A stretch of 64,000 bases of DNA from positions 129,829 to 193,828 of IMG/VR virus record IMGVR_UViG_3300047445_000186. The stretch is one strand, 5' to 3'. Positions 23,473 to 59,019 of the stretch are shown in pieces. Numbering within the stretch: the stretch's first letter is position 1; each line of letters starts with the position of its first letter. The DNA is from a virus. Made by a program: the position numbers and the translations under genes. Under the pieces are notes generated by a model. That model was not told where the DNA came from and searched no databases. It saw nothing but the letters and a program-made list of their open reading frames with translations.

Positions 23473-24060
23473 ATGAAAGCACGCCAAACTACCATTGCAG
23501 ATCGTCCCCAGATTGAAGCGATCGTGAAGTCTAACCCGAAGATGTACGGAGCTGACATCACTCGGTATCACAGCATCACGATCCATCGATTCGTTGGGCA
23601 CGTGGTTGGCGATCTGGCGAAGACTGCATGGTGTGTCGAAGACGACGAGGGTCAGATCGTCGGACTGGCGATTCAGTTCTGGTGGACCTCAATGCCGGCC
23701 TGGTCGATTGCCTCTCTGTTCTTCAAGAATGAACCTGGCAAGAATCAGTTCAACGCGCACAAGATTGGCGCCGTCCTGGTGAATGCGATGTGCAAAGAAG
23801 CCGAATCCCGAAAGATGTACGACTTCTACTACGTAGTAAGAGATAATGAATCTCTTCGTAAGAACATGAGCTTGAGCGTGAACGACGAATTCACGGAGAG
23901 GTACGAGATCAACGATCTGTTCCTGCTGCATCCGTACACTTCGCCGATCTACCCGATGTTCAAGAACATGCTCGGACACGTAATTGGGCGGAACCGCAAA
24001 CCAGTGGTTTTCCGCCTTGCATCGCTTAAGAGCAAATATAGGCCGTCTGTATGGGTGTGA
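23473..24060 (+). CDS. hypothetical protein (about 195 aa)
   Basis: ATG 23473. The listed ORF start 23341 would overlap the convergent gene. Confidence 0.45.
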   Translation: MKARQTTIADRPQIEAIVKSNPKMYGADITRYHSITIHRFVGHVVGDLAKTAWCVEDDEGQIVGLAIQFWWTSMPAWSIASLFFKNEPGKNQFNAHKIGAVLVNAMCKEAESRKMYDFYYVVRDNESLRKNMSLSVNDEFTERYEINDLFLLHPYTSPIYPMFKNMLGHVIGRNRKPVVFRLASLKSKYRPSVWV

Positions 24061-25505
24061 ACGTTCTGATCTTCACTTGCGTCTCTGGACGATTGTTCCA
24101 GCGCGCGATTGGAGCGTACCAGGTTGCTGGGTTTCTGCGGCAGCATGGGTACTCAGTGCAGGTCGTTGACTTCACAGACAACTTCACTGAACAGGAATTG
24201 AAGAAGGCCGTCGATCTTTACGTCGACGAGACAACCCTCGCTGTCGGCGTTTCAACCACGTTCTACAGTCATCTCGAAAACAAGTTCATCGCCGCGAAGA
24301 AGACCTTCGACGCGATCATTCCACAGGAACTTGAGAACGCGATCGTGTACTCGAAGGAGAAATTCCCGAAAGTAAAGATCGTTTTCGGTGGTTCGCGATC
24401 ACTGGCAGGCGAGGCAATGCCTTGGGTTGACATGGTCATTCACGGGTACGGTGAAGACAAGTTCCTGACGTACTTGGATGGTCTGTCTGGGCGCGCACCA
24501 AAGATCTTCTCGATCGGCAAGCCCTTGCGCGTGATCATGGACGATCCGCCGAAGAAGCGATTCGACATCCAAGAGCTGAGCCATCAGTTCGCGCCACAGG
24601 ACTTCGTTCTACCTGGTGAAACGCTCCCGATTGAAATCAGCCGTGGCTGTATCTTCAAGTGCAAGTTCTGCGCGTACCCGCTGAATGGCAAGAAGAAGAT
24701 GGACTTCCTTCGTTCCGCTCAGTGCGTTCAGGAAGAGCTGTTGCACAACTACGAGAAGTACGGAACCACGTCGTACTTTATCGGCGACGACACGTTCAAC
24801 GACAGCACATTCAAGCTAGAGGCATTGCACAAGGTAATCACCGAGCTGCCGTTCAAGCCGAAGTTCACGTGCTATCTGCGACTCGATCTGCTGTACGCTC
24901 ATCGCGAACAGATCCAGCTCCTCGATGAGATGGGTCTTGCTTCACCGTTCTTTGGGATCGAATCGCTGAATCAAAAGTCAGCCACCTCGATCGGCAAGGG
25001 CATGAAGACTGGCAAGGTCAAGGATTTCCTACTCGAGCTCTATCACGATCACTGGCGCGGAGAGAAGCCATTCACGTGCTCGTTCATTGTCGGTCTGCCG
25101 CATGAGACCCGTGAAACCGTTCAAGAGACATTTGAGTGGGTGAAGAAGACTGAACTGAGCTCGACGTTCTTTCCGCTGAGCATCTCAATCAAGTCGTTCT
25201 ACCAGTCCGAGTTCAATCGGAACTACAAGGATTACGGGTACGATCTGAAGGATCCAGAGACCGGGTACTGGGAGAGTGAGAATTTCACGCTCGATTCGGC
25301 CACTGAGATTGCCGAGCAGTTCAACAAAGAGCTGATGTACACGAACGATCGGCCGAGCTCTTGGTTCCTGATGACGATGCTGAATCACGGGATGACCCTT
25401 GAAGAGGCACGAAAGGTCTTGGTGAAGGACCTGCCTTGGCCGAAGATTCTGCGGACAAAGCGGGACAAGGTCGCCGAGTACAAAAAGCTTGTTCTGCAGA
25501 GCTAA
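24051..25505 (+). CDS. B12-binding radical SAM enzyme (class B)
   Basis: N-terminal Rossmann-like cobalamin-binding region, then EISRGCIFKCKFCAY (CxxxCxxC 4Fe-4S/SAM motif). Confidence 0.85.
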   Translation: MGVNVLIFTCVSGRLFQRAIGAYQVAGFLRQHGYSVQVVDFTDNFTEQELKKAVDLYVDETTLAVGVSTTFYSHLENKFIAAKKTFDAIIPQELENAIVYSKEKFPKVKIVFGGSRSLAGEAMPWVDMVIHGYGEDKFLTYLDGLSGRAPKIFSIGKPLRVIMDDPPKKRFDIQELSHQFAPQDFVLPGETLPIEISRGCIFKCKFCAYPLNGKKKMDFLRSAQCVQEELLHNYEKYGTTSYFIGDDTFNDSTFKLEALHKVITELPFKPKFTCYLRLDLLYAHREQIQLLDEMGLASPFFGIESLNQKSATSIGKGMKTGKVKDFLLELYHDHWRGEKPFTCSFIVGLPHETRETVQETFEWVKKTELSSTFFPLSISIKSFYQSEFNRNYKDYGYDLKDPETGYWESENFTLDSATEIAEQFNKELMYTNDRPSSWFLMTMLNHGMTLEEARKVLVKDLPWPKILRTKRDKVAEYKKLVLQS

Positions 25506-28393: not shown

Positions 28394-29422
28394 ATGGAAC
28401 CGAAACTTCTGACACGCGATGCCTTCCGAGAAGGTGTGTTCGCACGGGACAAGCACAAGTGCGTGTTCTGCAGCGAGCCTGCTCAGGACGCGCATCACAT
28501 TCTCGAGCGCCGTCTTTGGCCTGATGGCGGGTACTACCTCGAGAACGGCGCGTCTGTTTGCGGTGAGCACCACATTCTGTGCGAGCAGACTGTCATTTCG
28601 GTCGAGCAAGTTCGCGATGCATGTGGCATTCGCCAACCGCACGTTCCTCCGCATTTCTACCCAGATCACCAGTACGACAAGTGGGGCAACCCTCTGCTCG
28701 ATGGTGGCAAGCGCGGTCGTGGTGAACTGTTCTTCGACGAGTCAGTCCAGAAGGTCCTTGGCCAAGGTGGCGTGCTCGATCTGTTCACGTTGTACGCGAA
28801 GTACGGACGGACGTTCCATCTGCCATGGTCTCCTGGCATTCACGACGATGACAAGGCGCTGAAGGACTGCACACAGTTCGAAGGTAAGCGCGTGATCATG
28901 TCGCTGAAAGCCGATGGTGAGAACACCACTGGGTACTCGGACGGGCACATTCATGCTCGCTCGATTGACAGCCGAGGCGGTGAAGATCGCGCTTGGGTGA
29001 AGCAATTCCTGTCTGAGAACGTGTGCTACAACTTGCCTGAAGGCTGGCGAATCTGCGGTGAAAATCTGTGGGCCGAGCACTCGATCAAGTACAGCGACTT
29101 GAAATCGTACTTCTACGGCTTCAGCCTGTGGAATGAACGGAACGTCTGCCTCTCGTGGGACGAGACGATCGAGTATTTCGCTCTGTTAAACGTCACTCCA
29201 GTCGACGTGCTCTATGACGGTATCTGGGACGAGGCTGCGATCAGGAAAATCGAGAAGACGCTTGATCTTGAGAAGGTTGAAGGGTACGTGATCCGACTCG
29301 CTGAAGCGTACCCGTACAGCCAATTCAAGAGCTCGATCGCGAAGTTCGTCCGACCCGGGCACGTACAGACATCTAAGCATTGGCGGGCAGGTAGCCGCTT
29401 CACACCGAACAAACTAGCATGA
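28394..29422 (+). CDS. HNH zinc-finger nuclease domain fused to Rnl2-like ATP-dependent RNA ligase
   Basis: N-terminus CVFCSEPAQDAHHILERRLWPDGGYYLENGASVCGEHH is an HNH motif. Then nucleotidyltransferase motif I SLKADGEN, motif IV VEGYVIR and motif V KFVR, as in T4 Rnl2-type ligases. Confidence 0.7.
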   Translation: MEPKLLTRDAFREGVFARDKHKCVFCSEPAQDAHHILERRLWPDGGYYLENGASVCGEHHILCEQTVISVEQVRDACGIRQPHVPPHFYPDHQYDKWGNPLLDGGKRGRGELFFDESVQKVLGQGGVLDLFTLYAKYGRTFHLPWSPGIHDDDKALKDCTQFEGKRVIMSLKADGENTTGYSDGHIHARSIDSRGGEDRAWVKQFLSENVCYNLPEGWRICGENLWAEHSIKYSDLKSYFYGFSLWNERNVCLSWDETIEYFALLNVTPVDVLYDGIWDEAAIRKIEKTLDLEKVEGYVIRLAEAYPYSQFKSSIAKFVRPGHVQTSKHWRAGSRFTPNKLA

Positions 29423-37871: not shown

Positions 37872-37971
37872 GCCTCTCGATTCGAGAGGCGTTATTTCAA
37901 AACGTGCAGATAGGATTCCGAGGAAAGCTGAAGGCCAGGATTCGGAGGAAGCAGTACGTTTTGAAATAACG
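37872..37971. promoter_or_regulatory. 19-nt perfect palindrome (GCCTCTCGATTCGAGAGGC), then a 14-nt inverted repeat (GTTATTTCAAAACG ... CGTTTTGAAATAAC) ending at the 5' end of the first tRNA
   Basis: Seen directly. Likely a transcription or processing signal for the tRNA array. Confidence 0.4.
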
Positions 37972-38046
37972 GGTCGTTGACAGAGCGGCAGATGTACCTC
38001 CCTCTTAAGGAGATCTAGCAGGGTTCGACTCCCTGGCGACCCACCA
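37971..38046 (+). tRNA. tRNA-Lys(CTT)
   Basis: Manual fold: acceptor GGGTCGT / GCGACCC, T-loop GGTTCGACTCC, anticodon loop CTCTTAA, CCA encoded. Confidence 0.6.
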
Positions 38047-38051
38047 AACAT

Positions 38052-38162
38052 GCCGAGATAGCACGATGGTCGTGCACTTTATGTAAGAGCGAGTGTCTAC
38101 GGGAAACACGGCACTTGACAGAAAAGAAACGGATGGTGGTTCAAATCCATCTCTTGGCGCCA
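38052..38162 (+). tRNA. atypical long tRNA-like gene (about 111 nt; type II or intron-containing, identity unresolved)
   Basis: Acceptor GCCGAGA / TCTTGGC, D-arm GCAC-GATGGTC-GTGC, T-arm GGTGG-TTCAAAT-CCATC, encoded CCA. About 39 extra nt lie between the D- and T-arms. Confidence 0.35.
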
Positions 38163-38168
38163 AACAAT

Positions 38169-38244
38169 GGGACTTTCGTATAGCTGGTGCGTACGGGAGC
38201 TTGAAAACCTTCAGGAAGCGGTTCGATTCCGCTAGGTCCCACCA
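38169..38244 (+). tRNA. tRNA-Phe(GAA)
   Basis: Acceptor GGGACTT / AGGTCCC, anticodon loop TTGAAAA, T-loop GGTTCGATTCC, CCA. Confidence 0.55.
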
Positions 38245-38248
38245 ATTT

Positions 38249-38323
38249 GCTTCGTTCGACTACCGGTTAGGTCGCTAGCCTTTCAAGCTGGAGAAACGGG
38301 TTCGACTCCCGTACGAAGCACCA
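38249..38323 (+). tRNA. tRNA-Glu(TTC)
   Basis: Acceptor GCTTCGT / ACGAAGC, anticodon stem CTAGC / GCTGG with loop CTTTCAA, T-arm ACGGG-TTCGACT-CCCGT. Confidence 0.55.
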
Positions 38324-38330
38324 GAACAAT

Positions 38331-38409
38331 AGGGTTGAAATCGAAGTGGCACGAGATACATGGCTTTGACCCATGGTAATATCAGGTTCGAGTCCTGACA
38401 GCCCTGCCA
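38331..38409 (+). tRNA. tRNA-Gln(TTG)
   Basis: Anticodon stem CATGG / CCATG with loop CTTTGAC, T-arm TCAGG-TTCGAGT-CCTGA, CCA. Confidence 0.55.
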
Positions 38410-38414
38410 AACAT

Positions 38415-38492
38415 ATCAGCGTCGTCTAAATGGTCTAGGACATCAGACTTTCAATCTGAGCAATGCGGGTTCAACTCCCGTCGCTGATGCCA
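38415..38492 (+). tRNA. tRNA-Glu(TTC) (second copy, different backbone)
   Basis: Acceptor ATCAGCG / CGCTGAT, anticodon stem TCAGA / TCTGA with loop CTTTCAA. Confidence 0.5.
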
Positions 38493-38498
38493 AACAAT

Positions 38499-38573
38499 AC
38501 CTTAGTAGCTCAGTGGTAGAGCACCGTCTTGATAAGGCGTAGGTCGTTGGTTCGATTCCAACTTAAGGTACCA
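38499..38573 (+). tRNA. tRNA-Ile(GAT)
   Basis: GCTCAGTGGTAGAGC D-arm, anticodon loop TTGATAA, T-loop GGTTCGATTCC. Confidence 0.6.
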
Positions 38574-38580
38574 GAATAAT

Positions 38581-38654
38581 GGGACGTTCGTATATGGGTA
38601 TTATGTGGCGCTGTCTACGCTACGAAACGGGTTCGAGTCCCGTACGTCCCGCCA
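38581..38654 (+). tRNA. tRNA-Asp(GTC)
   Basis: Acceptor GGGACGT / ACGTCCC, anticodon stem TGGCG / CGCTA with loop CTGTCTA. Confidence 0.6.
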
Positions 38655-38658
38655 AATT

Positions 38659-38733
38659 CGTGCGGTAGCATTATGGTAATGCGCCACCCTCATAAGGTGT
38701 CCCAAGTGGGTTCGATTCCCACCTGCACGACCA
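38659..38733 (+). tRNA. tRNA-Met(CAT) (or Ile2/initiator; CAT anticodon)
   Basis: D-stem GCAT / ATGC, anticodon loop CTCATAA, T-arm GTGGG-TTCGATT-CCCAC. Confidence 0.55.
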
Positions 38734-38744
38734 AGTGTCCTTTG

Positions 38745-38818
38745 CTCCGGTGTAGCTCAGCGGTAGAGCAGCTCGCTGTTAACGAGTTGGTCGTTGGTTC
38801 GATCCCAGCCTCCGGAGC
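38745..38818 (+). tRNA. tRNA-Asn(GTT)
   Basis: GCTCAGCGGTAGAGC D-arm, anticodon stem GCTCG / CGAGT with loop CTGTTAA. No CCA encoded. Exact 5' end uncertain. Confidence 0.5.
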
Positions 38819-38833
38819 AAAGAACATTTCTAT

Positions 38834-38928
38834 TCCCCTGTACTCTAATTGGTAAGAGACCTGGCTGTTAACCAGACGTAAAGGCCGTAAGGCGTAATAT
38901 GCAAGTTCGAAGCTTGCTGGGGGAGCCA
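38834..38928 (+). tRNA. type II (long variable arm) tRNA, anticodon loop CTGTTAA; isotype unresolved
   Basis: 95 nt. Acceptor TCCCCTG / TGGGGGA, T-arm GCAAG-TTCGAAG-CTTGC, variable arm of about 24 nt, CCA. Confidence 0.4.
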
Positions 38929-38978
38929 AGATTAAGAAACCTTACTCACGCGGTCACTCGCGGTCCCGTAGGGTTTAT

Positions 38979-39054
38979 GCGCGGTTAGCTCAGTTGGTAG
39001 AGCAAACGACCGATAATCGTTAGGTCGCTGGTTCGAATCCAGCACTGCGCACCA
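38979..39054 (+). tRNA. tRNA with GAT-like anticodon (loop CCGATAA, C33; Ile-like, identity uncertain)
   Basis: Acceptor GCGCGGT / ACTGCGC, GCTCAGTTGGTAGAGC D-arm, T-loop GGTTCGAATCC, CCA. Confidence 0.5.
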
Positions 39055-39062
39055 CAAATTAT

Positions 39063-39139
39063 GCCTCTTTAGCTCAACTGGATAGAGCACTGGCCTACGA
39101 AGCCGGGGGTTGCAGGTTCGAATCCTGTGAGAGGCACCA
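39063..39139 (+). tRNA. tRNA-Arg(ACG)
   Basis: Anticodon stem CTGGC / GCCGG with loop CTACGAA, T-loop GGTTCGAATCC, CCA. Confidence 0.6.
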
Positions 39140-39214
39140 GAATATTCCGACCGTCAGTGCAAGGTTATCCTTCTACGATTCCCCCTTGCGCGATCTCTTT
39201 GTCGGACGAAACAT

Positions 39215-39288
39215 AGGTCCTTGGTGTAATGGCAGCATGACGGTCTCCAAAACCGTTCGTGGGGGTTCGAGTCCCTCAGGACCTGCCA
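39215..39288 (+). tRNA. tRNA-Trp(CCA)
   Basis: Acceptor AGGTCCT / AGGACCT, anticodon stem ACGGT / ACCGT with loop CTCCAAA, T-arm GGGGG-TTCGAGT-CCCTC. Confidence 0.6.
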
Positions 39289-39357
39289 AGATAACGGTGC
39301 GTTTAGGAACGGACGCTTAATTGCCAACCCCACATAATCTGGCGGCCGAATAACAAT

Positions 39358-39432
39358 GTGCACTTGACAGAATGGTAATGTCGCTGGCTGCAACCCAGTT
39401 GTTCGGGGGTTCGATTCCCTCAGTGCACTCCA
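39358..39432 (+). tRNA. tRNA-Cys(GCA)
   Basis: Acceptor GTGCACT / AGTGCAC, anticodon stem GCTGG / CCAGT with loop CTGCAAC, CCA. Confidence 0.6.
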
Positions 39433-39588
39433 ATTACGACAGGAGCAAGGCGCCCTCGGGCTTGTGGCTAGCTGTGGAAAGTGACCCTCCACCTCCAACG
39501 TCGTTCCAATCAAAGCTTCGTCGTTCCATTCACACGGGTACGCGACTCCGTTTCTCGCAAGAGGTGCAGGGCGAAGCAACGCAATTAT

Positions 39589-39661
39589 AGGTGAGCCAGC
39601 GGCGCTGGACAAGAGCATCCAAAGCTCGAAGTTGGTAGTTCGACTCTGCCATCGCCTGCCA
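39589..39661 (+). tRNA. atypical tRNA-like gene A of a tandem pair (compact D-arm; anticodon loop ATCCAAA)
   Basis: Leader AATTATAGGTGA shared with the next copy. T-arm GGTAG-TTCGACT-CTGCC, encoded CCA. D-region is only CCAGCGGCGCTGG. Confidence 0.4.
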
Positions 39662-39666
39662 ATTAT

Positions 39667-39738
39667 AGGTGATCCATGGGCCGTGGACATGAGCCTCCAA
39701 AACTCGTTGGGACAGTTCGACTCTGTCATTGCCTGCCA
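39667..39738 (+). tRNA. atypical tRNA-like gene B of the tandem pair (anticodon loop CTCCAAA)
   Basis: Same architecture as copy A: AGGTGAT..., D-region CCATGGGCCGTGG, T-arm GACAG-TTCGACT-CTGTC, CCA. Confidence 0.4.
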
Positions 39739-39747
39739 AAATTTATG

Positions 39748-39822
39748 GTGTACGTAGTGTAGTGGTCTGCACCCTAGGCTGTGAACCTGGTAGTGGGAGT
39801 TCGATCCTCCTCGTACACCCCA
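39748..39822 (+). tRNA. tRNA-His(GTG)
   Basis: Acceptor GTGTACG / CGTACAC with an extra encoded G-1 and C73 discriminator. Anticodon stem CTAGG / CCTGG with loop CTGTGAA. Confidence 0.65.
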
Positions 39823-39827
39823 GAATA

Positions 39828-39903
39828 TGTTGCCTCGTGATATGGAAATCGCCCCTGGCTCTGACCCAGGTGGATGACGGTTCGATTCCGTCCGGGGTTG
39901 CCA
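39828..39903 (+). tRNA. tRNA-Gln(CTG)-like (acceptor stem poorly paired)
   Basis: Anticodon stem CCTGG / CCAGG with loop CTCTGAC, T-arm GACGG-TTCGATT-CCGTC, CCA. The 5' acceptor strand does not pair well. Confidence 0.4.
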
Positions 39904-39908
39904 AATAC

Positions 39909-39983
39909 GCCTTGTGAGTGAATGTGGAGAGCACAGCGGTTTCGTATTCCGCAGGACGCAGTTCGACTCTGCGACAAGGCACC
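39909..39983 (+). tRNA. tRNA-Thr(CGT)-like
   Basis: Acceptor GCCTTGT / ACAAGGC perfect, T-arm CGCAG-TTCGACT-CTGCG, anticodon region GCGG-TTTCGTATT-CCGC. Confidence 0.45.
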
Positions 39984-39991
39984 AGAATTAT

Positions 39992-40064
39992 TGGGGTATG
40001 ACATGGACGTTGGCCTGGGCTTTGACCCCGGTGCCGGTCGGTTCGATTCCGACTACCCTTGCCA
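39992..40064 (+). tRNA. tRNA-Gln(TTG)-like (imperfect acceptor)
   Basis: Anticodon stem CTGGG / CCCGG with loop CTTTGAC, T-arm GTCGG-TTCGATT-CCGAC, CCA. Confidence 0.4.
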
Positions 40065-40067
40065 AAC

Positions 40068-40145
40068 ACCGCATTAGCTCAACTGGATCAGAGCGTCGCA
40101 CTCCGAAGGCGACAGATGTGGGTTCGAATCCCATGTGTGGTACCA
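40068..40145 (+). tRNA. tRNA-Arg(CCG)
   Basis: GCTCAACTGGATCAGAGC D-arm, anticodon loop CTCCGAA, T-arm GTGGG-TTCGAAT-CCCAT, CCA. Confidence 0.55.
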
Positions 40146-40152
40146 AAATTAC

Positions 40153-40228
40153 GCCGTCATAGCTCAGTTGGTAGAGCAGTTCCTTGGTATGGAGAAGGTC
40201 AGGGGTTCGATTCCTCTTGACGGCACCA
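40153..40228 (+). tRNA. tRNA-Thr(GGT)
   Basis: Acceptor GCCGTCA / TGACGGC, GCTCAGTTGGTAGAGC D-arm, anticodon loop TTGGTAT, CCA. Confidence 0.6.
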
Positions 40229-40420
40229 GTTTAGCACATGCTCGGCATGATAACACAGGGTCATTGATCCGGACATGTTCGATCTGCGGTCTGACGTAGG
40301 AGTACGGCAAAGACAAGCTCGGAACGGGAACTCCCATGTGCTGATTCATTACTTGAAAGGAGCGCGTAATGCGTACGTCAGTTTCGACGCCTAGCGCGTC
40401 TGGTAAACGCCATACACTTT

Positions 40421-40496
40421 GGGTGTATGGCGTAAAGGTTAGCGCATCGGGCTTTTAACCCGTAAGGTCAGAGTTCGACTCTCTGTGCACCCACCA
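40421..40496 (+). tRNA. tRNA-Lys(TTT)
   Basis: Acceptor GGGTGTA / TGCACCC, anticodon loop CTTTTAA, T-arm CAGAG-TTCGACT-CTCTG, CCA. Confidence 0.55.
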
Positions 40497-49030: not shown

Positions 49031-49076
49031 ACTGCACCCGGCGTCATAGAATTCATTTCTCGACGCTAAATACAAA

Positions 49077-49103
49077 CGCTGCAGAAATGCAGCGCTGCTT
49101 TCG
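49077..49103 (+). terminator. stem-loop CGCTGCA-GAAA-TGCAGCG followed by a CTGCTTTCG terminator-like element
   Basis: Seen directly, 46 nt after the stop at 49030. Confidence 0.5.
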
Positions 49104-49530
49104 AACCGAAGATAATGGGTTATCGGCTAAGTTTCCCACTATCATCTCTTTGTTCGAGCATTTTAGCAGCCTCTTCAACACTTACTTCAATCTCATTCAG
49201 CCGCAGCAAGTTGGTTATCAACTACTACGACCTGGACCGTCCGCCCTGTAGAAACACTAAACTCTCTACTGGGTAACCCGTTGACTCCTCTGGTTATTGG
49301 AGCGCCTCGCCGAGAGGGCAGACTTTTGTCTGAAGATCGGCTGATGTTGCAAGTACAAGGAACTTGATCGGATACCGCAACTTAAATCGCGGTGTAGGCG
49401 GAGCCCATGCTCGAAAGAGATACTCTGCTGAAGTCTCCAACAGCAATTTTTGCTGGATGGGATTGTAGTAAGTGCTGTCACGCGCCTTTGTTCACTGCGC
49501 TAAAGTGAACCGATAATCAGGAGAGAACTC

Positions 49531-51150
49531 ATGAACATGTACACCGACCACGCCGCTTCTCTGAACGCCGTTCAGACTTCCACCCCACAGACGGAAGCAA
49601 TTCCTGGCCGCGAAGCCGAGATGAAGCTGAACAACGCTGGTGGATTCACGTTCACTCTTGATCAGTGGGGCGTCCTCGATCGCTTCATCATGATCGGTTC
49701 CGAGAACGGGAACTACTACGTCGGTCAAAAGGACGTGATGAAGCAATCGTTCGCGAACACCCTGAAGTGTATCGCTGAAGACGGTCTGCGTGCTGTCGCT
49801 CGTGCTCTCGAGTACTCAACCTCTGGTCGCGCTCCGAAGAACGACCCTGCTCTGGTTGTGCTCGCGCTCGCCGCATCGAAGGGAACGCCTGAAGTTCAAT
49901 CCGCTGCTTACGACGCCCTGCCAAAGGTCGCTCGTACCGGTACCCATCTGTTCACGTTCGTCTCGATTCTGAACTCCCTCGGGAAGTGGAACGCCGCTGC
50001 AAAGCGCGGCCTGGCGAAGTGGTACACGAACCGTTCGATCGACAAGCTCGCGATCCAAGTGCTGAAGTACCAGCAGCGCAATGGCTGGTCGCACCGCGAC
50101 GTCCTGCGTCTGGCACACGTGAAGCCGCAGAACGACATCCAGACGAATCTGTTCAAGTACATCACGAAGGGTGGCGACGCTCTCGTGCAAGGCTCGCCGA
50201 TTCCGCAGCTCGTGATCGACTTCGAATTCCTGAAGCGCGCCGAGTCGGCCAAGGATGTCGTTCGTCTGATCGAGTCGAATCCATCGATCGCATGGGAACT
50301 CGTTCCTACGCAATTCCTGAAGGATCCGGACGTGCTGATGGCGCTCCTCCCTTCGATGGGCATGACCGCTGTGATCCGTCAACTGGGTAAGCTCACTGCC
50401 GCTGGCGTGATCAAGCCGATGTCGGAAGGCGAGAAGTTGGTCGTCGCGAAGCTCTCGGATGCCGAAGCAATCAAGCGTGGCCGTGTCCATCCGATCACTA
50501 TCCTCCAAGCCCTGAAGCAGTACCAAGCTGGTCATGGTGAAAAGGGTTCGTTGGTCTGGTCTCCAGTTCAACGCGTCGTGTCGGCCCTGGATGACTCGTT
50601 CTACTCTGCGTTCACGCTTGGCGAGGACAAGAAGGAGAATCACTTCATCGCTTGCGACATCTCCGGCTCCATGACCATGGACAGCGCGAAGGTGATCGGT
50701 TCGCCGAACCTCTTGGCTGGTGAAGTGGCTGCGGTGTTCGCGATGGCGATCGCTCGTACCCAATCGAACTATTTCCTCGCTGGTTTCAAGCAGAACTTGG
50801 AACCACTGAAGATCTCGCCGACGATGCGTCTCGCTGACGCGTTGAACGCAATGCGTGCTATGCACTGGCAAGGCGGCTCGACCGACTGTGCTAAGGCATT
50901 CGAGTACGCGCTCCAGAACGGTATCGCGGTGGACAAGTTCACCGTGATTACCGACAATGAAACGTACGCGGGTGGCCAAGCCCCAGTGCAGGCGCTCAAG
51001 AAGTATCGTGACCGTACTGGTCGCGCTGCGAAGTCGATCGTGATTGCTACCTCGGTATCTGAATTCACGATCGCCGATCCGAAGGACGGTGGTATGTTGG
51101 ACATCGCAGGGTTTGACTCGGCTGCTCCACAGATCATCGCTGATTTCTAA
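49531..51150 (+). CDS. rsr: Ro60/Rsr-like protein (TROVE-type N-terminal region + C-terminal vWA domain with MIDAS)
   Basis: 539 aa. MIDAS DxSGSM (IACDISGSMTMDS) about 385 aa in, then T and D positions as in Ro60. RBS AGGAGAG. The large helical N-terminal domain was not verified. Confidence 0.55.
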   Translation: MNMYTDHAASLNAVQTSTPQTEAIPGREAEMKLNNAGGFTFTLDQWGVLDRFIMIGSENGNYYVGQKDVMKQSFANTLKCIAEDGLRAVARALEYSTSGRAPKNDPALVVLALAASKGTPEVQSAAYDALPKVARTGTHLFTFVSILNSLGKWNAAAKRGLAKWYTNRSIDKLAIQVLKYQQRNGWSHRDVLRLAHVKPQNDIQTNLFKYITKGGDALVQGSPIPQLVIDFEFLKRAESAKDVVRLIESNPSIAWELVPTQFLKDPDVLMALLPSMGMTAVIRQLGKLTAAGVIKPMSEGEKLVVAKLSDAEAIKRGRVHPITILQALKQYQAGHGEKGSLVWSPVQRVVSALDDSFYSAFTLGEDKKENHFIACDISGSMTMDSAKVIGSPNLLAGEVAAVFAMAIARTQSNYFLAGFKQNLEPLKISPTMRLADALNAMRAMHWQGGSTDCAKAFEYALQNGIAVDKFTVITDNETYAGGQAPVQALKKYRDRTGRAAKSIVIATSVSEFTIADPKDGGMLDIAGFDSAAPQIIADF

Positions 51151-55540: not shown

Positions 55541-57499
55541 ATGTCAGCTCTCAAGTCTCTCTCGGCGAAATACGCAGAGAAATTCGCAGCACCGGAAGTC
55601 ATGTCGCTCGAAGCGTACCTGGACCTGTGCAAAACCGAACCTCTGGCATATGCCACCGCCGCAGAGCGGATGGTCGCAGCCATTGGCCAACCTGTTGTGG
55701 TTGACACGTCGGAAGACCCACGTCTCTCGCGCATCCACAGCAACAAGAAGATCCGCACGTACGATGCATTCAAGGAATACTACGGCGGTGAAGATCAGAT
55801 CGAACGTCTCGTTGCGTACTTCCGCAATGCAGCCGCAGGTCTGGAAGAATCGAAGCAGATTCTGTACCTGAAGGGTCCAGTCGGCGGCGGGAAGTCCAGC
55901 CTGGTCGAGCTCCTGAAGGCTCTGATGGAAAAGCACCCGTTCTACGCTCTGTACGATGCGAGCGAAAAGGATGCGGAACTGCGGACCTCGCCAGTGTTCG
56001 AATCGCCGCTCGGTCTGTTCAACAAGCACGACCCCGATCACCAAGCGGTTCTCGCTGACTCGGGCATCCCAGTGGGCTACGCTGGTCAAGCAGTTCTGTC
56101 GGGCTGGGCACTGAAGAAGCTCGAAGAATTCGGCGGCGACATCACGCGTTTCAGCGTCGTGAAGCTCTGGCCGAACAAGGACACGCAAGTCGGCGTGATG
56201 AAGGTCGAGCCGGGCGACGAGAACAACCAAGACGTCTCTGTGCTGGTCGGCAAGACTGATCTGCGGAAGCTCGAGAAGTTCAGCCAGAATCACCCGTACG
56301 CTTACACATACGGTGGTGGTCTGAATCGCACGAACCAAGGCCTGATGGACTTCGCCGAAATGTTCAAGGCGAACATCAAGACGCTGAACCCGTTGCTGAT
56401 GGCTACGCAAGAGCACAACTACAACGGTACCGAAGCGATCCCAGCGATGCCTTACACCGGCATTATCTGCGCGCACAGCAACGAGTCCGAGTGGTTCGCG
56501 TTCAAGAACAACAAGACGAACGAAGCGTTCCTTGACCGTGTGTACATCGTGGACGTGCCGTACTGCCTCCGCGTCGACGAAGAAGTGAAGATCTATCAGA
56601 AGCTGATCGCGGGCTCCTCGCTCTCGAAGGCACCGATGGCTCCGTACACTCTCGAGCTGCTCGCTCAGTGGATGGTTCTGACTCGCCTGAAGGAGCCAGA
56701 GAACTCGACGCTGATGGCGAAGATGAAGGTCTATAACGGCGAGAACGTGAAGGACACGATGCCGAACGCAAAGCCGTACGAAGAGTACCGCGATGCTGCC
56801 GGGAACGACGAAGGTATGAGCGGCCAAAGCACTCGATTCGCGTTCAAGATCCTGTCGCAATCGTTCGATCTGCGCCCTGAAGAACAACAGGCAAACCCTG
56901 TGGATCTGATGTACGTGATCGACGCCGCGGTCAAGAAGGAATCGCTGCCGGAAGAAACCGAGAAGAAGCTCCTGACGCTGATCAAGGATCTGCAACGGAA
57001 GTACTTCGATTTCCTCGAAAAGGAACTGCGCGCTGCCTACCTCGACTCGTTCAACAGCTTCGGCCAGAACATGTTCGATCGGTACTTCCTGTTCGCTGAA
57101 GCCTGGATTGCTGATGAGCAATGCCGCGATCCGGAAACTCATCAGATGATGAACCGCGAGAAGCTGAACGCAGCTCTCGAAGAGACCGAAAAGCCGGCTG
57201 GGATCGTGAATGCCAAGGACTTCCGGAACGAGATCGTGAACTACGTGCTGCGGTACAAGAACAAGCACGACGTCGCTCCTCGCTGGAACGAGTACGAGAA
57301 GATCAAGGTCGTGCTCGAGAAGCGGATGTTCAGCGCAACCGAGAACATCATGCCAGTCGTGTCGTTCGGTCCGAAGGGTGACAAGGAAGCTGAAGAGAAG
57401 CACACGAAGTTCGTCGAGCGCATGATCGAGAACGGGTACAGCGAAAACCAAGTGAAGATCCTGGTGTCCTGGTGGTCGCAAAACAAGAAAGCTGCATAA
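55541..57499 (+). CDS. prkA: PrkA/YeaG-family serine protein kinase (AAA+ N-terminus)
   Basis: AYATAAERM, DPRLSRIHSN and Walker A QILYLKGPVGGGKSSLVELLK are near-identical to E. coli YeaG / B. subtilis PrkA. 652 aa. RBS present. Confidence 0.95.
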   Translation: MSALKSLSAKYAEKFAAPEVMSLEAYLDLCKTEPLAYATAAERMVAAIGQPVVVDTSEDPRLSRIHSNKKIRTYDAFKEYYGGEDQIERLVAYFRNAAAGLEESKQILYLKGPVGGGKSSLVELLKALMEKHPFYALYDASEKDAELRTSPVFESPLGLFNKHDPDHQAVLADSGIPVGYAGQAVLSGWALKKLEEFGGDITRFSVVKLWPNKDTQVGVMKVEPGDENNQDVSVLVGKTDLRKLEKFSQNHPYAYTYGGGLNRTNQGLMDFAEMFKANIKTLNPLLMATQEHNYNGTEAIPAMPYTGIICAHSNESEWFAFKNNKTNEAFLDRVYIVDVPYCLRVDEEVKIYQKLIAGSSLSKAPMAPYTLELLAQWMVLTRLKEPENSTLMAKMKVYNGENVKDTMPNAKPYEEYRDAAGNDEGMSGQSTRFAFKILSQSFDLRPEEQQANPVDLMYVIDAAVKKESLPEETEKKLLTLIKDLQRKYFDFLEKELRAAYLDSFNSFGQNMFDRYFLFAEAWIADEQCRDPETHQMMNREKLNAALEETEKPAGIVNAKDFRNEIVNYVLRYKNKHDVAPRWNEYEKIKVVLEKRMFSATENIMPVVSFGPKGDKEAEEKHTKFVERMIENGYSENQVKILVSWWSQNKKAA

Positions 57500-57576
57500 G
57501 CTAAAGCAGCTCTGAGAGGGTGAAGGCGGAGTGGAGGATATCCCTCCGCCTTCTTTAGTTTCGAACTAGGACAAGT

Positions 57577-58950
57577 ATGGAAAAGCTTCCAGTAGCAACA
57601 TATATTTTCGTGGATCGTCGGAAGACGGGCCGCGGCAAGTCGCTTCCGAATCGTCATCGTCTGCTGCGTCGGATTAAGGACGCGATCCGCGCATCGCAAC
57701 CGCAGGACATCGATGCTGGTGGTGTGAAGGGCGCTGCATCTCCGCAATCGGCATCATCTGGGAACGCCGTGAAGGTCACGCGGAACTCACTGCATGAGCC
57801 GACGTTTCATTACGCGAGCGGTACCGGGAATCACAACATCGTTCTGATCGGAAATGATCAGTGGGAACGTGGTGATGACTTCCCTCTGAGTGATGAAGAC
57901 TCGGGTGCAGGGAACGGCCAAGGCGGACCAGGCGACGATGGTGAAGACGACTTCATCGTGAACATCTCGCGTGATGAGTTCTACAATGTGTTCTTCGAAG
58001 ATTGCGAGCTGCCGAATCTGCAAGAGACGCATGAGAAGGAACTGCCTGAGATGGTTCCAAAGCACGCTGGCTTCCAGAAGGAAGGTAACCCAGCGCAGCT
58101 GAACGTGATTCGCTCGTACAAGAACGCGCTGCCACGCCGTCGTGCGCTGACCACCGAAGCACGTGAACAGCTCGAGGAACTTGAGGCCGAGTACGAGAAG
58201 CTCATGAATGAGCTGGGCTCGCAGTTCACGCTCGCATCGCGCGCTGAAGTGATCCAAGACCGGATGGCCGAGATTGAAGAGCAGATCACTGCACTCCGCA
58301 GTCGGATCAGTGCTGTGCCGTTCTTCGAGAAGCTCGATCTGCGGTACACGAAGAAAGAGAAGGTCATGGTGAAGTCGGCTGACGCCGTGTTCATCATGCT
58401 CATGGACATCTCTGGTTCGATGGACGAGACCAAGAAGCGTCTTGCACGAAAGTTCTTCTCGCTTCAGTACGCGTTCATCAAGCGTAAGCACCCAGGTACG
58501 GACCTCGTGTTCGTGGCGCACACTGAAACGCCTGTTGAAATGCAGGAAGAAGAGTTCTTCACGACCCGTAAGAACGGTGGCACGATCGTTTCGCCAGCGT
58601 ACAAGCTCGTGAATGATATCGTGAAGGCGCGGTACGACGCAACGCAGACGAATCTCTATCTGTCGCAAGCATCTGACGGTGACAACTGGGACGATGACAA
58701 TGCGGAGATCATTCCAGAACTCGAGGACAGTGGCCTGCTCTCAAAGCTCCGTCACATGAGCTACGTTCAGGTCGGTGTTCCGTACGACTACGGCGGCTAC
58801 TCGTTCGGTACCTCGATGTTGACGCTGTGGACGACTCTGACGTCGATCGCGAACACATCGAAGAAGCTCTCGATGGTCAAGATCGCTGATGACACGCAAG
58901 TGTTCGACGCGTTCCACAAGATCTACAAGAAGAGCAATCAGACGAAATGA
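57577..58950 (+). CDS. yeaH: YeaH/YhbH-family protein (DUF444, vWA-like)
   Basis: VFIMLMDISGSMDE, FFTTRKNGGTIVSPAYKL and YLSQASDGDNWDDD are conserved YeaH blocks. 457 aa. Confidence 0.9.
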   Translation: MEKLPVATYIFVDRRKTGRGKSLPNRHRLLRRIKDAIRASQPQDIDAGGVKGAASPQSASSGNAVKVTRNSLHEPTFHYASGTGNHNIVLIGNDQWERGDDFPLSDEDSGAGNGQGGPGDDGEDDFIVNISRDEFYNVFFEDCELPNLQETHEKELPEMVPKHAGFQKEGNPAQLNVIRSYKNALPRRRALTTEAREQLEELEAEYEKLMNELGSQFTLASRAEVIQDRMAEIEEQITALRSRISAVPFFEKLDLRYTKKEKVMVKSADAVFIMLMDISGSMDETKKRLARKFFSLQYAFIKRKHPGTDLVFVAHTETPVEMQEEEFFTTRKNGGTIVSPAYKLVNDIVKARYDATQTNLYLSQASDGDNWDDDNAEIIPELEDSGLLSKLRHMSYVQVGVPYDYGGYSFGTSMLTLWTTLTSIANTSKKLSMVKIADDTQVFDAFHKIYKKSNQTK

Positions 58951-59019
58951 AGTCACAACCCGGTCTTCGCAAGTACCGGGTTGTTTACTGAATATGATAG
59001 ACTGATCATAAGGACTTAA

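What the first reader, a model, noticed from the sequence alone, without database searches (positions are those of the whole stretch)
39589..39738. Tandem twin tRNA-like genes with truncated D-arms
Two adjacent 72-73-nt genes share the 5' flank AATTATAGGTGA, a 5-bp/3-nt mini hairpin in place of the D-arm (CCAGC-GGC-GCTGG and CCATG-GGC-CGTGG), a T-arm AGTTCGACTCTG and an encoded CCA. They differ by compensatory changes in the stems, which implies selection on structure rather than sequence. They do not fit any standard isotype and may be tRNA-mimics, for example Ro/Y-RNA tRNA-like modules or primers.
Basis: seen in the sequence. Interest (0 to 1): 0.55.

Follow-up and report, generated by a model that had tools for sequence, protein, structure and literature searches.

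The report
Twin phage tRNA-Trp genes, compact D-arm
The two elements are tandem copies of a tryptophan tRNA (anticodon CCA) inside a jumbo-phage tRNA array, and their D-arm is shrunk to a short hairpin, a design that recurs in many other phage tRNA arrays and that standard tRNA finders often miss.

Summary
Window 39589-39661 and 39667-39738 are two 73/72-nt cloverleaf genes with an encoded CCA and a normal T-arm. A 5-bp/3-nt hairpin replaces the D-arm.

The genes do fit an isotype. Both carry anticodon CCA in a 7-nt loop, G73 and A1-U72/G2-C71/G3-C70, like the canonical tRNA-Trp 300 nt upstream. ARAGORN in mitochondrial mode calls both tRNA-Trp(cca) at exactly these coordinates. Default ARAGORN and Rfam tRNA miss them.

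They are regular units of a tRNA array of at least 20 genes in a 331,776-bp jumbo-phage contig.

A D-arm-blind pattern found at least 62 viral loci with the same compact D-arm: a 4-5-bp stem and a triloop with invariant GG. The helix covaries strongly. These loci are almost always the only Trp gene seen in large arrays. One close homologue lies in another 253-kb contig.

They are not Y-RNA modules. A Y-RNA-like hairpin sits next to the Ro60 gene, 10 kb away.

Most likely they are functional tRNA-Trp paralogues of an under-described phage variant. Both have 4-bp anticodon stems, so near-cognate UGA reading remains an open minority possibility.

The parts
37971..40496 (+). Phage tRNA array that contains the two elements. 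All genes are on the + strand, nearly all have an encoded CCA, and they are separated by 3-15-nt A/T-rich spacers (AATTAT, AACAAT, GAATAAT).
   Evidence: ARAGORN found 20 genes in the window, 19 of them in this stretch. Rfam tRNA gave 19 hits. Spacer and flank table.
39215..39288 (+). Canonical tRNA-Trp(CCA) of the same array. It has an 18-nt D region and a 5-bp anticodon stem, and the same AGG...CCUGCCA ends as the twins.
   Evidence: ARAGORN, Rfam tRNA 59.2 bits, parse.
39589..39661 (+). Copy 1, tRNA-Trp(CCA) with a compact D-arm, 73 nt.
- Acceptor stem 39589-39595 with 39651-39657 (G7.A66 mismatch)
- D hairpin 39596-39600 / loop GGC 39601-39603 / 39604-39608
- Linker ACA 39609-39611
- Anticodon stem 39612-39616 with 39624-39628 (A27.G43 unpaired at the top, so 4 bp)
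- Anticodon loop AUCCAAA 39617-39623, anticodon CCA 39619-39621
- Variable loop 39629-39633
- T stem 39634-39638 with 39646-39650, T loop UUCGACU 39639-39645
- G73 at 39658, CCA at 39659-39661
   Evidence: Sequence. ARAGORN -mt calls 'D-loop mtRNA-Trp(cca)' at exactly 39589-39661. The minimum-free-energy fold is this cloverleaf. Model R1, built only from other phages, scores it 45.0 bits, E=1.9e-9.
39662..39666 (+). Spacer ATTAT between the copies, the same punctuation as elsewhere in the array.
39667..39738 (+). Copy 2, tRNA-Trp(CCA) with a compact D-arm, 72 nt.
- Acceptor stem 39667-39673 with 39728-39734 (7 bp, two of them G.U)
- D hairpin 39674-39678 / loop GGC 39679-39681 / 39682-39686
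- Linker ACA 39687-39689
- Anticodon stem 39690-39694 with 39702-39706 (U27.G43 wobble; C31.A39 unpaired at the bottom)
- Anticodon loop CUCCAAA 39695-39701, anticodon CCA 39697-39699
- Variable loop 39707-39710
- T stem 39711-39715 with 39723-39727, T loop 39716-39722
- G73 at 39735, CCA at 39736-39738
   Evidence: Sequence. ARAGORN -ps85 and -mt both call tRNA-Trp(cca) at 39667-39738. R1 scores it 54.8 bits, E=5.8e-12. The cloverleaf is 4.2 kcal/mol above the minimum-free-energy fold.

Best explanation
The two elements are tandem paralogous genes for tRNA-Trp (anticodon CCA). They belong to a compact-D-arm variant that recurs in the large tRNA arrays of big phages.

Inferred steps:
- They are transcribed with the rest of the array as one + strand precursor.
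- RNase P and 3' processing cut them out at the A/T-rich spacers, and the encoded CCA means no CCA addition is needed.
- Tryptophanyl-tRNA synthetase charges them through the anticodon CCA, G73 and the A1-U72/G2-C71/G3-C70 end.
- They decode UGG during infection, alongside the canonical tRNA-Trp of the same array.

The D-arm is replaced by a 5-bp stem that starts directly after the acceptor stem and closes on a GGC triloop. The two G's are the likely counterparts of G18-G19, which dock on the T loop. tRNA-Sec, which keeps G18/G19 in a 6-bp/4-nt D-arm, is a precedent.

Why Trp tRNAs of phage arrays take this form is not shown. My preferred inference is that the core is remodelled yet still works in translation, and that it differs enough from the host tRNA-Trp to change decoding kinetics or to escape tRNA-directed nucleases or dependence on host modification.
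For: Shown for the two elements:
- Exact cloverleaf with Trp anticodon and identity nucleotides.
- Same strand, spacing and CCA punctuation as the array's other tRNAs.
- Compensatory substitutions between the copies and with L137; D hairpin 100% paired, 3 of 5 pairs changed on both sides.
- A covariance model built only from IMG/VR phage sequences scores them 54.8 and 45.0 bits, in the range of the class, 42-87 bits.

Shown for the class:
- The search pattern fixes nothing inside the D region, only an upper limit on its length. It found at least 62 viral loci whose D region is 16 nt or shorter.
- The loop GG is invariant in 41 of 41 aligned members.
- The D helix covaries. In 16 sequences it is 100% paired with 3 of 4 pairs changed on both sides. 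In 57 distinct sequences it is 95% paired with 4 of 4 pairs changed on both sides, and whole-structure pairing is 96% against 39-46% when the partners are slid.
- These genes sit in arrays: median 12.5 tRNAs per locus, and 43 of 62 have at least 3 other tRNAs within 1.5 kb. In 61 of 62 loci no other Trp gene was seen, so the compact form must serve as the array's tRNA-Trp.
- A close homologue, CCGCG-GGC-CGCGG-ACG with the same T loop, is the only Trp gene found in a 23-tRNA array of another 252,843-bp contig.
- In the same arrays D loops of 5 nt or fewer are almost confined to Trp: 29% of called Trp, against 0-3% for other isotypes and 8% for Cys.
Against: - There are no expression, processing or charging data.
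- Rfam tRNA and default ARAGORN reject both copies.
- Each copy has a flawed anticodon stem: A27.G43 in copy 1 and C31.A39 in copy 2. Copy 1 also has G7.A66.
- The cloverleaf of copy 2 is 4.2 kcal/mol less stable than an alternative fold.
- This genome, unlike nearly all others with the compact form, also has a canonical tRNA-Trp, so the twins could be redundant and drifting.
- All other assemblies of this phage are 100% identical over the array, so there is no population evidence of constraint.
- The class alignment A6 was fitted to the model, which favours pairing. The AGG/CCUGCCA ends and the loops were fixed by the search pattern and are not independent evidence.
Confidence: 0.68

Rival explanations
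1. Specialised near-cognate decoders. The twins are charged with Trp but, because of the remodelled D-arm/hinge and a 4-bp anticodon stem, they read UGA as well as UGG. This would work like the Hirsh G24A or A9C mutants and the Blastocrithidia-like 4-bp-stem tRNA-Trp(CCA). It would give the phage programmed or global UGA readthrough while the canonical copy handles UGG.
For: - Copy 1 has A27.G43, the same top-unpinned configuration as the C27A variant reported to mediate UGA readthrough. Copy 2 has a weak U27.G43 and an open C31.A39 (PMC13092985).
- D-arm/hinge mutations of tRNA-Trp are classic UGA suppressors (PMC13092985).
- The genome keeps a canonical Trp as well as the variants, which fits a division of labour.
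- Short D loops in these arrays are concentrated in Trp and, more weakly, Cys, the two sense neighbours of UGA (and the Cys examples).
Against: - TGA is the commonest stop codon of the window's genes (22 of 43), often in ATGA overlaps, so there is no general UGA-to-Trp reassignment here.
- Across the class most members have 5-bp anticodon stems. The 27:43 pair is open in 7 of 57 and the 31:39 pair in 11 of 57, so a 4-bp stem is not a class feature.
- The same compact architecture with a UCA anticodon is almost absent from viral contigs: 1 locus against at least 118 for CCA.
- In bacteria 4-bp-stem tRNA-Trp usually just decodes UGG (PMC13092985).
Confidence: 0.1
2. Decaying duplicates. The twins are redundant tandem copies of a once-functional compact-D tRNA-Trp and are now drifting towards pseudogenes.
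For: - Mismatches in the acceptor stem (copy 1) and in the anticodon stems of both copies.
- The lower of the two class-model scores (45 bits) is near the bottom of the class range.
- A canonical Trp gene is present nearby.
- The cloverleaf of copy 2 is not its minimum-free-energy fold.
Against: - By my own reading of the alignment, 10 of the 11 substitutions at stem positions keep or create pairing, including three double changes.
- The loops that make tertiary contacts (T loop, GG triloop), U33, the anticodon, G73 and CCA are all intact.
- The same kinds of mismatch occur in other class members that are the only Trp gene of their array.
Confidence: 0.12
3. tRNA mimics with a role outside translation: decoys or substrates for tRNA-directed nucleases, or partners of the phage's Ro60/RNA-repair proteins, including the first reader's Y-RNA-module or primer ideas.
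For: - The window encodes Ro60 (TROVE + vWA), an RNA ligase, a PolyA_pol/CCA-adding-type nucleotidyltransferase and a metallophosphoesterase.
- Bacterial Y RNAs do contain tRNA-like domains (PMC4201824).
Against: - YrlA-type RNAs have a Ro-binding helix formed by their ends and a closed 'acceptor' stem-loop, and they lie next to the Ro60 gene (PMC4201824). The twins have an open acceptor end with CCA and a full anticodon arm, and they lie 10 kb from Ro60.
- No Rfam Y-RNA/YrlA hit at E<=10.
- A Y-RNA-like hairpin lies at 49095-49160, directly upstream of Ro60.
- In other phages the compact form is the array's only Trp gene, which argues for a translational role.
Confidence: 0.05

Closest known systems
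Bacterial/phage elongator tRNA-Trp(CCA), e.g. the canonical copy at window 39215-39288 and the annotated tRNA-Trp of Vibrio phage Ceto (MG649966)
   Same: - 7-bp acceptor stem, G73, A1-U72/G2-C71/G3-C70, anticodon loop (C/A)UCCAAA, 5-bp T stem with a UUCGAnU loop, and encoded CCA.
- Placement in a phage tRNA array.
- The Ceto tRNA-Trp already shows an intermediate form, a 5-bp D stem with a 4-nt loop, and is annotated as plain tRNA-Trp.
   Different: - The D region is 16 nt, with no 8-9 linker, a 5-bp stem and a 3-nt loop. It has no U8, A14 or A21 equivalents.
- There is a 3-nt linker to the anticodon stem, and the anticodon stems have 4 bp.
- The genes fall below the Rfam tRNA threshold and the default ARAGORN threshold.
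tRNA-Sec D-arm (6-bp stem, 4-nt loop, G18/G19 conserved)
   Same: A long D stem closing on a minimal loop that still keeps the two G's (PMC5330540). This is a precedent that such a core can work on the ribosome.
   Different: tRNA-Sec has a 13-bp acceptor/T helix, a very long variable arm, a UCA anticodon and Ser/Sec identity. The twins are 7/5, have a 4-5-nt variable loop, and carry anticodon CCA with Trp identity.
Metazoan mitochondrial tRNAs with a D-replacement loop
   Same: They are shorter than 76 nt, and the ARAGORN mitochondrial mode files the twins under this heading.
   Different: Here the D region is not an unstructured replacement loop. It is a covarying helix with an invariant GG triloop. 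The T arm and elbow nucleotides are fully canonical, and the context is a phage.
Hirsh (G24A)/A9C and 4-bp-anticodon-stem tRNA-Trp(CCA) variants that read UGA
   Same: They have the same isotype and anticodon, with alterations in the D-arm/hinge and at the 27:43 pair. Copy 1 has A27.G43 (PMC13092985).
   Different: Those variants are point changes in an otherwise canonical D-arm. Here the whole D-arm is rebuilt, UGA reading is untested, and TGA is the main stop codon of the window.
YrlA / bacterial Y RNAs (tRNA-like Ro60 partners)
   Same: They show tRNA mimicry, and a Ro60 gene is present in the same genome.
   Different: The twins have no Ro-binding helix, their topology differs (open acceptor end with CCA), they are not adjacent to Ro60, and there is no Rfam hit (PMC4201824).

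Membership tests
tRNA (elongator tRNA-Trp, anticodon CCA) | 7-bp acceptor stem, discriminator base and 3' CCA | tested here: met
   Copy 2 has 7 of 7 pairs and copy 1 has 6 of 7 (G7.A66). Both have G73 and an encoded CCA.
tRNA (elongator tRNA-Trp, anticodon CCA) | T arm: 5-bp stem and a 7-nt loop of the form UUCRAnY | tested here: met
   GGUAG/CUGCC and GACAG/CUGUC with loop UUCGACU. The loop is identical in both copies and in L137.
tRNA (elongator tRNA-Trp, anticodon CCA) | Anticodon arm: 5-bp stem and a 7-nt loop with U33, anticodon CCA and a purine at position 37 | tested here: inconclusive
   The loops AUCCAAA and CUCCAAA have U33, CCA and A37. Each stem, however, has only 4 standard pairs: A27.G43 in copy 1 and C31.A39 in copy 2.
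tRNA (elongator tRNA-Trp, anticodon CCA) | Canonical D arm: 2-nt linker (U8, N9), 3-4-bp stem and a 7-12-nt loop with A14, G18G19 and A21 | tested here: not met
   There is no linker, the stem has 5 bp and the loop is the 3-nt GGC. Only the GG is retained.
tRNA (elongator tRNA-Trp, anticodon CCA) | Reaches the thresholds of general tRNA detectors | tested here: not met
   Rfam RF00005 gave no hit at E<=10, and default ARAGORN made no call. Copy 2 is called at -ps85 and both copies in -mt mode. tRNAscan-SE was not available.
tRNA (elongator tRNA-Trp, anticodon CCA) | TrpRS identity set (anticodon CCA, G73, A1-U72, G2-C71, G3-C70) and actual aminoacylation | not testable with these tools
   All of these nucleotides are present in both copies. 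The identity set comes from established knowledge of E. coli tRNA-Trp. Charging needs an experiment.
   Both copies have a 16-nt D region: 5 bp + GGC + 5 bp + ACA. They score 54.8 and 45.0 bits on model R1, which was built without them. Class covariation is shown.
   Array of at least 20 tRNAs in a 331,776-bp contig whose protein relatives are huge phages. The class has a median of 12.5 tRNAs per locus.
   The window also has a canonical tRNA-Trp at 39215-39288, plus two compact copies. In the class, 61 of 62 loci show no other Trp gene.
YrlA / Y RNA (Ro60-bound ncRNA) | [quoted passage not shown] | tested here: not met
   The ends form an ordinary open acceptor stem with a single-stranded GCCA. 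A complete anticodon arm is present. Definition from PMC4201824.
YrlA / Y RNA (Ro60-bound ncRNA) | Encoded next to the Ro60 (rsr) gene, and matched by Rfam Y-RNA-type models | tested here: not met
   The twins lie 9.8 kb upstream of Ro60 (49531-51150) and have no such Rfam hit at E<=10. The Y-RNA-like hit is at 49095-49160 instead.
tRNA-Sec | 13-bp acceptor/T helix, long variable arm and UCA anticodon, with a 6-bp/4-nt D-arm | tested here: not met
   The twins have 7/5 helices, a 4-5-nt variable loop and anticodon CCA. Only the long-stem/short-loop style of D-arm is similar (PMC5330540).
Blastocrithidia-like 4-bp-anticodon-stem tRNA-Trp(CCA) | 27:43 unpaired, 7-nt loop, otherwise canonical tRNA, and decodes UGA | tested here: inconclusive
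   Copy 1 has A27.G43 with a 7-nt loop. Copy 2 is open at 31:39 instead. The D-arm is not canonical. UGA decoding is untestable here, and TGA is the most frequent stop codon (22 of 43).

The most novel reading that the evidence does not exclude
The compact D-arm is an adaptive redesign specific to phage tRNA-Trp (and occasionally tRNA-Cys). It changes how the tRNA bends on the ribosome, so that CCA reads UGA as well as UGG, a natural and extreme counterpart of the Hirsh suppressor. Alternatively, it makes the phage's tRNA-Trp invisible to a host or phage nuclease, or to a modification enzyme, that recognises the D-arm/elbow of the cellular tRNA-Trp. In this genome the canonical copy and the two 4-bp-stem compact copies would then have divided these roles.
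Probability: 0.12. Interest if true: 0.75.

Novelty: new variant of a known kind. Interest (0 to 1): 0.45.

Why it matters
The twins add two tRNA-Trp genes to a jumbo-phage tRNA set, which is ordinary biology. Following them exposed something less ordinary: a recurrent, covariation-supported and largely isotype-specific redesign of the tRNA core in phage tRNA arrays.

Three consequences follow:
- Default ARAGORN misses about half of these genes (31 of 62). In this window Rfam misses both, and a gene caller placed a spurious 191-aa ORF over them. Phage tRNA repertoires are therefore under-counted.
- The class shows that a bacterial-type translation system apparently tolerates a 3-nt D loop on a 4-5-bp stem abutting the acceptor stem. 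That is useful for tRNA engineering and for understanding which core contacts are dispensable.
- D-arm/hinge changes in tRNA-Trp are the classic route to UGA misreading, so the class gives a natural set of test cases for that question.

Tried and rejected
- **Near and distant BLAST against cultured phage genomes.** Only generic tRNA-Ile/T-arm matches came back, and nothing homologous to the twins. BLAST of class members found only the Ceto and MD18 tRNA-Trp genes; MD18 is canonical.
- **Exact DNA patterns from the twins in IMG/VR.** Two patterns gave no match. One gave two chance matches inside coding regions with no tRNAs nearby.
- **Population variation.** Every other assembly carrying this phage is 100% identical over the array, so there is nothing to learn from it.
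- **Synteny walks from flanking proteins.**
  - The upstream 207-aa protein has relatives at 54-69% identity with tRNA arrays downstream, but their contigs end before any Trp gene.
  - The downstream dienelactone hydrolase leads to bacterial or non-syntenic phage contigs.
- **Y-RNA reading.** Rejected for the reasons given in the membership test.
- **Protein-coding reading.** The − strand ORF 39154-39729 (191 aa), called as a gene in public assemblies, is antisense to four tRNA genes. I judged it spurious by inspection; it was not scanned against any library.
- **General UGA-to-Trp recoding.** Rejected for this window because TGA is the main stop codon.
- **UCA-anticodon versions of the compact form.** Almost none exist in viral contigs.
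- **Promoter and terminator scan of the array.** Uninformative; counts were at shuffle level.
- **Compact D-arm as a general property of array tRNAs.** Rejected, because other isotypes in the same arrays have normal D loops with medians of 8-11 nt.
- **Compact D-arm as a copy of host tRNA-Trp.** In the bacterial genome scan 97 of 105 evaluable hits were canonical. The 5 compact hits all lie in 12-24-tRNA arrays.
Full report
**1. The observation**

There are two adjacent units of 73 and 72 nt, at 39589-39661 and 39667-39738, separated by ATTAT.

Each unit begins AGGTGA, has a 5-bp/3-nt hairpin (CCAGC-GGC-GCTGG or CCATG-GGC-CGTGG), has a T-arm around AGTTCGACTCTG, and ends CCTGCCA. A pairwise alignment gives 87% column identity.

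One correction applies. Only AATTAT of the 'shared flank' is flank. It is the A/T-rich spacer that precedes most genes of the surrounding array. AGGTGA is the 5' strand of the acceptor stem.

**2. What the elements are**

The elements lie in the one long gap of a tRNA array. ARAGORN finds 20 tRNA genes in the window, 19 of them between 37971 and 40496. All are on the + strand and nearly all have an encoded CCA. Default ARAGORN and Rfam do not call the twins, and Rfam gives no tRNA hit there even at E<=10.

Read as a cloverleaf, each has these parts:
- a 7-bp acceptor stem with A1-U72, G2-C71 and G3-C70
- discriminator G73 and CCA
- a 5-bp T stem with loop UUCGACU
- a 4-5-nt variable loop
- a 7-nt anticodon loop (AUCCAAA or CUCCAAA) with U33, anticodon CCA and A37

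These are the features of tRNA-Trp. They match the canonical tRNA-Trp 300 nt upstream (39215-39288), which has the same AGG...CCUGCCA ends.

With the threshold lowered to 85%, the standard mode calls copy 2.

The statement that they fit no isotype is therefore wrong. The statement that the D-arm is abnormal is right. The D region is 16 nt, against 18 nt in the neighbouring canonical Trp. It has no 8-9 linker, a 5-bp stem, a GGC triloop and a 3-nt ACA linker.

**3. Selection on structure**

By my own reading of the alignment, 11 substitutions fall at stem positions. Three pairs changed on both sides and still pair: C-G to G-C and G-C to U-G in the D hairpin, and G-C to A-U in the T stem. Three single changes keep or create a pair. 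One change breaks a pair. The T loop, the GGC loop, the ACA linker and the ends do not vary, while the variable loop is scrambled.

A metagenome scan for this exact architecture returned one further sequence, L137 5625-5696, from a 252,843-bp contig. It reads AGGAUGC-CCGCG-GGC-CGCGG-ACG-..., has the same T loop, and is the only Trp gene in a 23-tRNA array.

On the three sequences, 95.5% of cells pair, against 35-41% when the partners are slid. Thirteen of 22 pairs change on both sides. The D hairpin is 100% paired with 3 of 5 pairs covarying.

**4. A wider class**

I searched IMG/VR with a pattern that fixes only Trp features: the CCUGCCA end, the T loop, UCCAAA and AGG. It fixes nothing inside the D region but caps its length. 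It hit the window only at the twins, with 0 matches expected.

Parsing these gave 62 loci whose D region is 16 nt or shorter. The typical layouts are:
- 4 bp + NGG + 4 bp + 3 nt (14 nt)
- 1 + 4 + 3 + 4 + 3 (15 nt)
- 1 + 5 + 3 + 5 + 2 (16 nt)

Examples are GAUC-UGG-GAUC, GCAC-AGG-GUGC, GGCUA-AGG-UAGCC and CGCCG-UGG-CGGCG.

The evidence that this is a real structural class:
- The two G's of the triloop are invariant in 41 of 41 aligned members, although the pattern did not require them.
- In 16 sequences aligned without reference to a model, the D helix is 100% paired, and 3 of its 4 pairs show double changes with up to five pair types.
- In 57 distinct sequences aligned to a covariance model, the D helix is 95% paired with double changes at all four pairs. 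Whole-structure pairing is 96%, against 39-46% for slid partners. That alignment is fitted to the model, so it leans towards pairing.
- The model (R1) was built only from IMG/VR sequences. It scores the window's copies at 54.8 and 45.0 bits, within the class range.

**5. Context of the class**

- Compact-D Trp genes sit in large arrays. The median is 12.5 tRNAs per fetched locus, and 43 of 62 have at least three other tRNAs within 1.5 kb. Many contigs are 80-450 kb long.
- In 61 of 62 loci no other Trp gene was seen, which argues that the compact form is the working tRNA-Trp of those phages. The loci are at most about 14 kb long, so a distant second gene cannot be excluded.
- Half of them (31 of 62) are missed by default ARAGORN.
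- Within the same arrays, D loops of 5 nt or fewer are nearly confined to Trp. They make up 29% of called Trp genes, 0-3% of other isotypes and 8% of Cys. Two compact tRNA-Cys examples appear.
- In a scan of one genome per bacterial species with the same pattern, 97 of 105 evaluable hits were canonical. The five compact hits all lay in loci with 12-24 tRNAs, that is, in arrays.
- A D-arm-independent scan of viral contigs suggests that the compact form makes up only a few percent of phage Trp(CCA) genes with an encoded CCA. There was 1 clear case among 92 evaluable new loci, plus L019 and L022 re-listed from the earlier set.
- Cultured phages show intermediates. The annotated tRNA-Trp of Vibrio phage Ceto has a 5-bp D stem and a 4-nt loop.
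- Four literature searches found no description of this class.

**6. Genomic setting and the Y-RNA idea**

The window is part of a 331,776-bp contig. Its proteins have distant relatives in huge phages: Atu_ph07, Phosso, RsoM2USA and uncultured phages of 480-640 kb.

The window encodes:
- a Ro60 homologue with TROVE and vWA domains (49531-51150)
- PrkA, DUF444 and SpoVR
- an RNA ligase
- a PolyA_pol/CCA-adding-type enzyme
- a metallophosphoesterase

YrlA-type RNAs have a Ro-binding helix made by their ends and a closed 'acceptor' stem-loop, and they lie next to the Ro60 gene (PMC4201824). The twins have an open acceptor end with CCA and a full anticodon arm. They lie 9.8 kb from Ro60 and have no Rfam Y-RNA hit.

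Instead, the 500-nt gap just upstream of Ro60 holds a hairpin at 49095-49160. It matches the nematode stem-bulge (Y-RNA-homologue) family at 30.4 bits, E=0.007, which is below the gathering score of 38. It folds with z=-3.8.

**7. Mechanism**

Shown:
- the gene anatomy
- membership of a covarying class
- array context

Inferred:
- co-transcription with the array, and processing at the A/T-rich spacers
- charging by TrpRS through the anticodon, G73 and the first three acceptor pairs (the established E. coli identity set)
- use in decoding UGG
- docking of the triloop GG on the T loop, as in tRNA-Sec, whose 6-bp/4-nt D-arm keeps G18/G19 (PMC5330540)

Reservations specific to this window:
- A canonical Trp gene is also present.
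- Copy 1 has G7.A66 and A27.G43.
- Copy 2 has C31.A39, and its cloverleaf is 4.2 kcal/mol above the minimum-free-energy fold.
- Such mismatches also occur in class members that are sole Trp genes. The 27:43 pair is open in 7 of 57 and the 31:39 pair in 11 of 57.

**8. The UGA question**

Changes in the D-arm/hinge (Hirsh G24A, A9C) and a 4-bp anticodon stem opened at 27:43 make tRNA-Trp(CCA) read UGA. The C27A (A27.G43) variant is reported to mediate UGA readthrough (PMC13092985). Copy 1 has exactly A27.G43 on top of a rebuilt D-arm.

Against a recoding role:
- TGA is the commonest stop codon in the window (22 of 43), often in ATGA overlaps.
- Most class members have 5-bp anticodon stems.
- UCA-anticodon versions of the compact form are almost absent.

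I keep this as a minority reading at about 0.1.

**9. Verdict**

The elements are two tandem tRNA-Trp(CCA) genes of a compact-D-arm variant that recurs in phage tRNA arrays. They are most likely functional (confidence about 0.68). They may be partly degenerate duplicates (0.12) or specialised decoders (0.10). They are very unlikely to be Y-RNA modules or primers.

As a kind of thing, they are a new variant of a known kind. The interest is moderate. It lies less in the twins themselves than in the under-annotated, Trp-focused redesign of the tRNA core that they point to.

Noticed in passing
window 49095-49160 (+), within the 500-nt gap 49031-49530 upstream of the Ro60 gene 49531-51150: Y-RNA-like hairpin. 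It matches Rfam ceN72-3_ceN74-2 (a nematode stem-bulge RNA, a Y-RNA homologue) at 30.4 bits, E=0.0068, below the gathering score of 38. The 5' arm CCGAAGAUAAUGGGUUAUC resembles the 5' part of vertebrate Y RNAs; that resemblance is from memory. The region 49078-49178 folds at -34.2 kcal/mol with z=-3.8. It is a likely partner RNA of the phage Ro60.
   Followed up: partly
window 38331-38409, 39992-40064, 39831-39903 (+): Three tRNA-Gln-like genes have poor or odd D-arms. Gln(UUG) at 38331-38409 is called only in ARAGORN mt mode. Gln(UUG) at 39992-40064 is called only at -ps85, and Rfam places it nearest tRNA-Sec at 20.8 bits. Gln(CUG) at 39831-39903 barely reaches the Rfam tRNA threshold, 29.3 against 29 bits, with the D-arm skipped in the alignment.
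   Followed up: partly
window 38834-38928 (+): A 95-nt tRNA-Asn(GUU) with an insertion of about 23 nt in the variable region that can form a hairpin. It is shaped like a class II tRNA, which is unusual for Asn.
   Followed up: no
window 38047-38168 (+): The 122-nt gap between tRNA-Lys and tRNA-Phe contains a tRNA-like 5' end (GCCGAGA UA GCAC...) and a T-arm/CCA end (GGUGGUUCAAAUCCAUC UCUUGGC G CCA). This may be a long or interrupted tRNA. ARAGORN -ps85 calls only a tRNA-Leu(cag) at 38083-38158.
   Followed up: no
window 38659-38733 (+): The array's tRNA-Met(CAU) also has a short D loop: CAUUA-UGG-UAAUG can form 5 bp around a UGG triloop. It still scores 54.2 bits on Rfam tRNA.
   Followed up: no
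window 39154-39729 (-): An ORF of 191 aa, antisense to four tRNA genes including both twins. Public assemblies call it as a gene (e.g. L004 12886-13461). It is almost certainly a false gene call that hides the tRNAs.
   Followed up: partly
window 39433-39588 (+): The 156-nt non-tRNA spacer just upstream of copy 1 contains a direct repeat, CGTCGTTCCAATCA / CGTCGTTCCATTCA, spaced 20 nt apart (39499-39512 and 39519-39532). Its function is unknown. Two other long gaps in the array, 39140-39214 and 40229-40420, were not examined.
   Followed up: no
window 5355-6383, 8408-9502, 28394-29422, 49531-51150, 55541-60564 (+): A set of RNA-handling and stress genes in the jumbo phage: a metallophosphoesterase, a PolyA_pol/CCA-adding-type nucleotidyltransferase, an RNA ligase, Ro60, and a PrkA-DUF444-SpoVR trio. 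A B12-binding radical SAM protein lies at 24051-25505.
   Followed up: partly
L094 7126-7196 and 7204-7274 (+), IMG/VR contig of 395,473 bp: Another tandem pair. A compact-D tRNA-Trp(CCA) is followed after 7 nt by a second gene with the same Trp-type ends (AGG...CCUGCCA) and a short D region. Its anticodon region is different (…CAGACCAUCGAAAGUCCG…) and does not give a clean 5-bp stem with a 7-nt loop.
   Followed up: no
L028 2815-2885 (+); L193 4478-4551 (-): tRNA-Cys(GCA) genes in the same arrays also have compact D-arms: UUCU-GGG-AAGG and CCACC-UGG-GGUGG. Short D loops in these arrays are concentrated in Trp and, to a lesser degree, Cys, the two sense neighbours of the UGA codon.
   Followed up: partly
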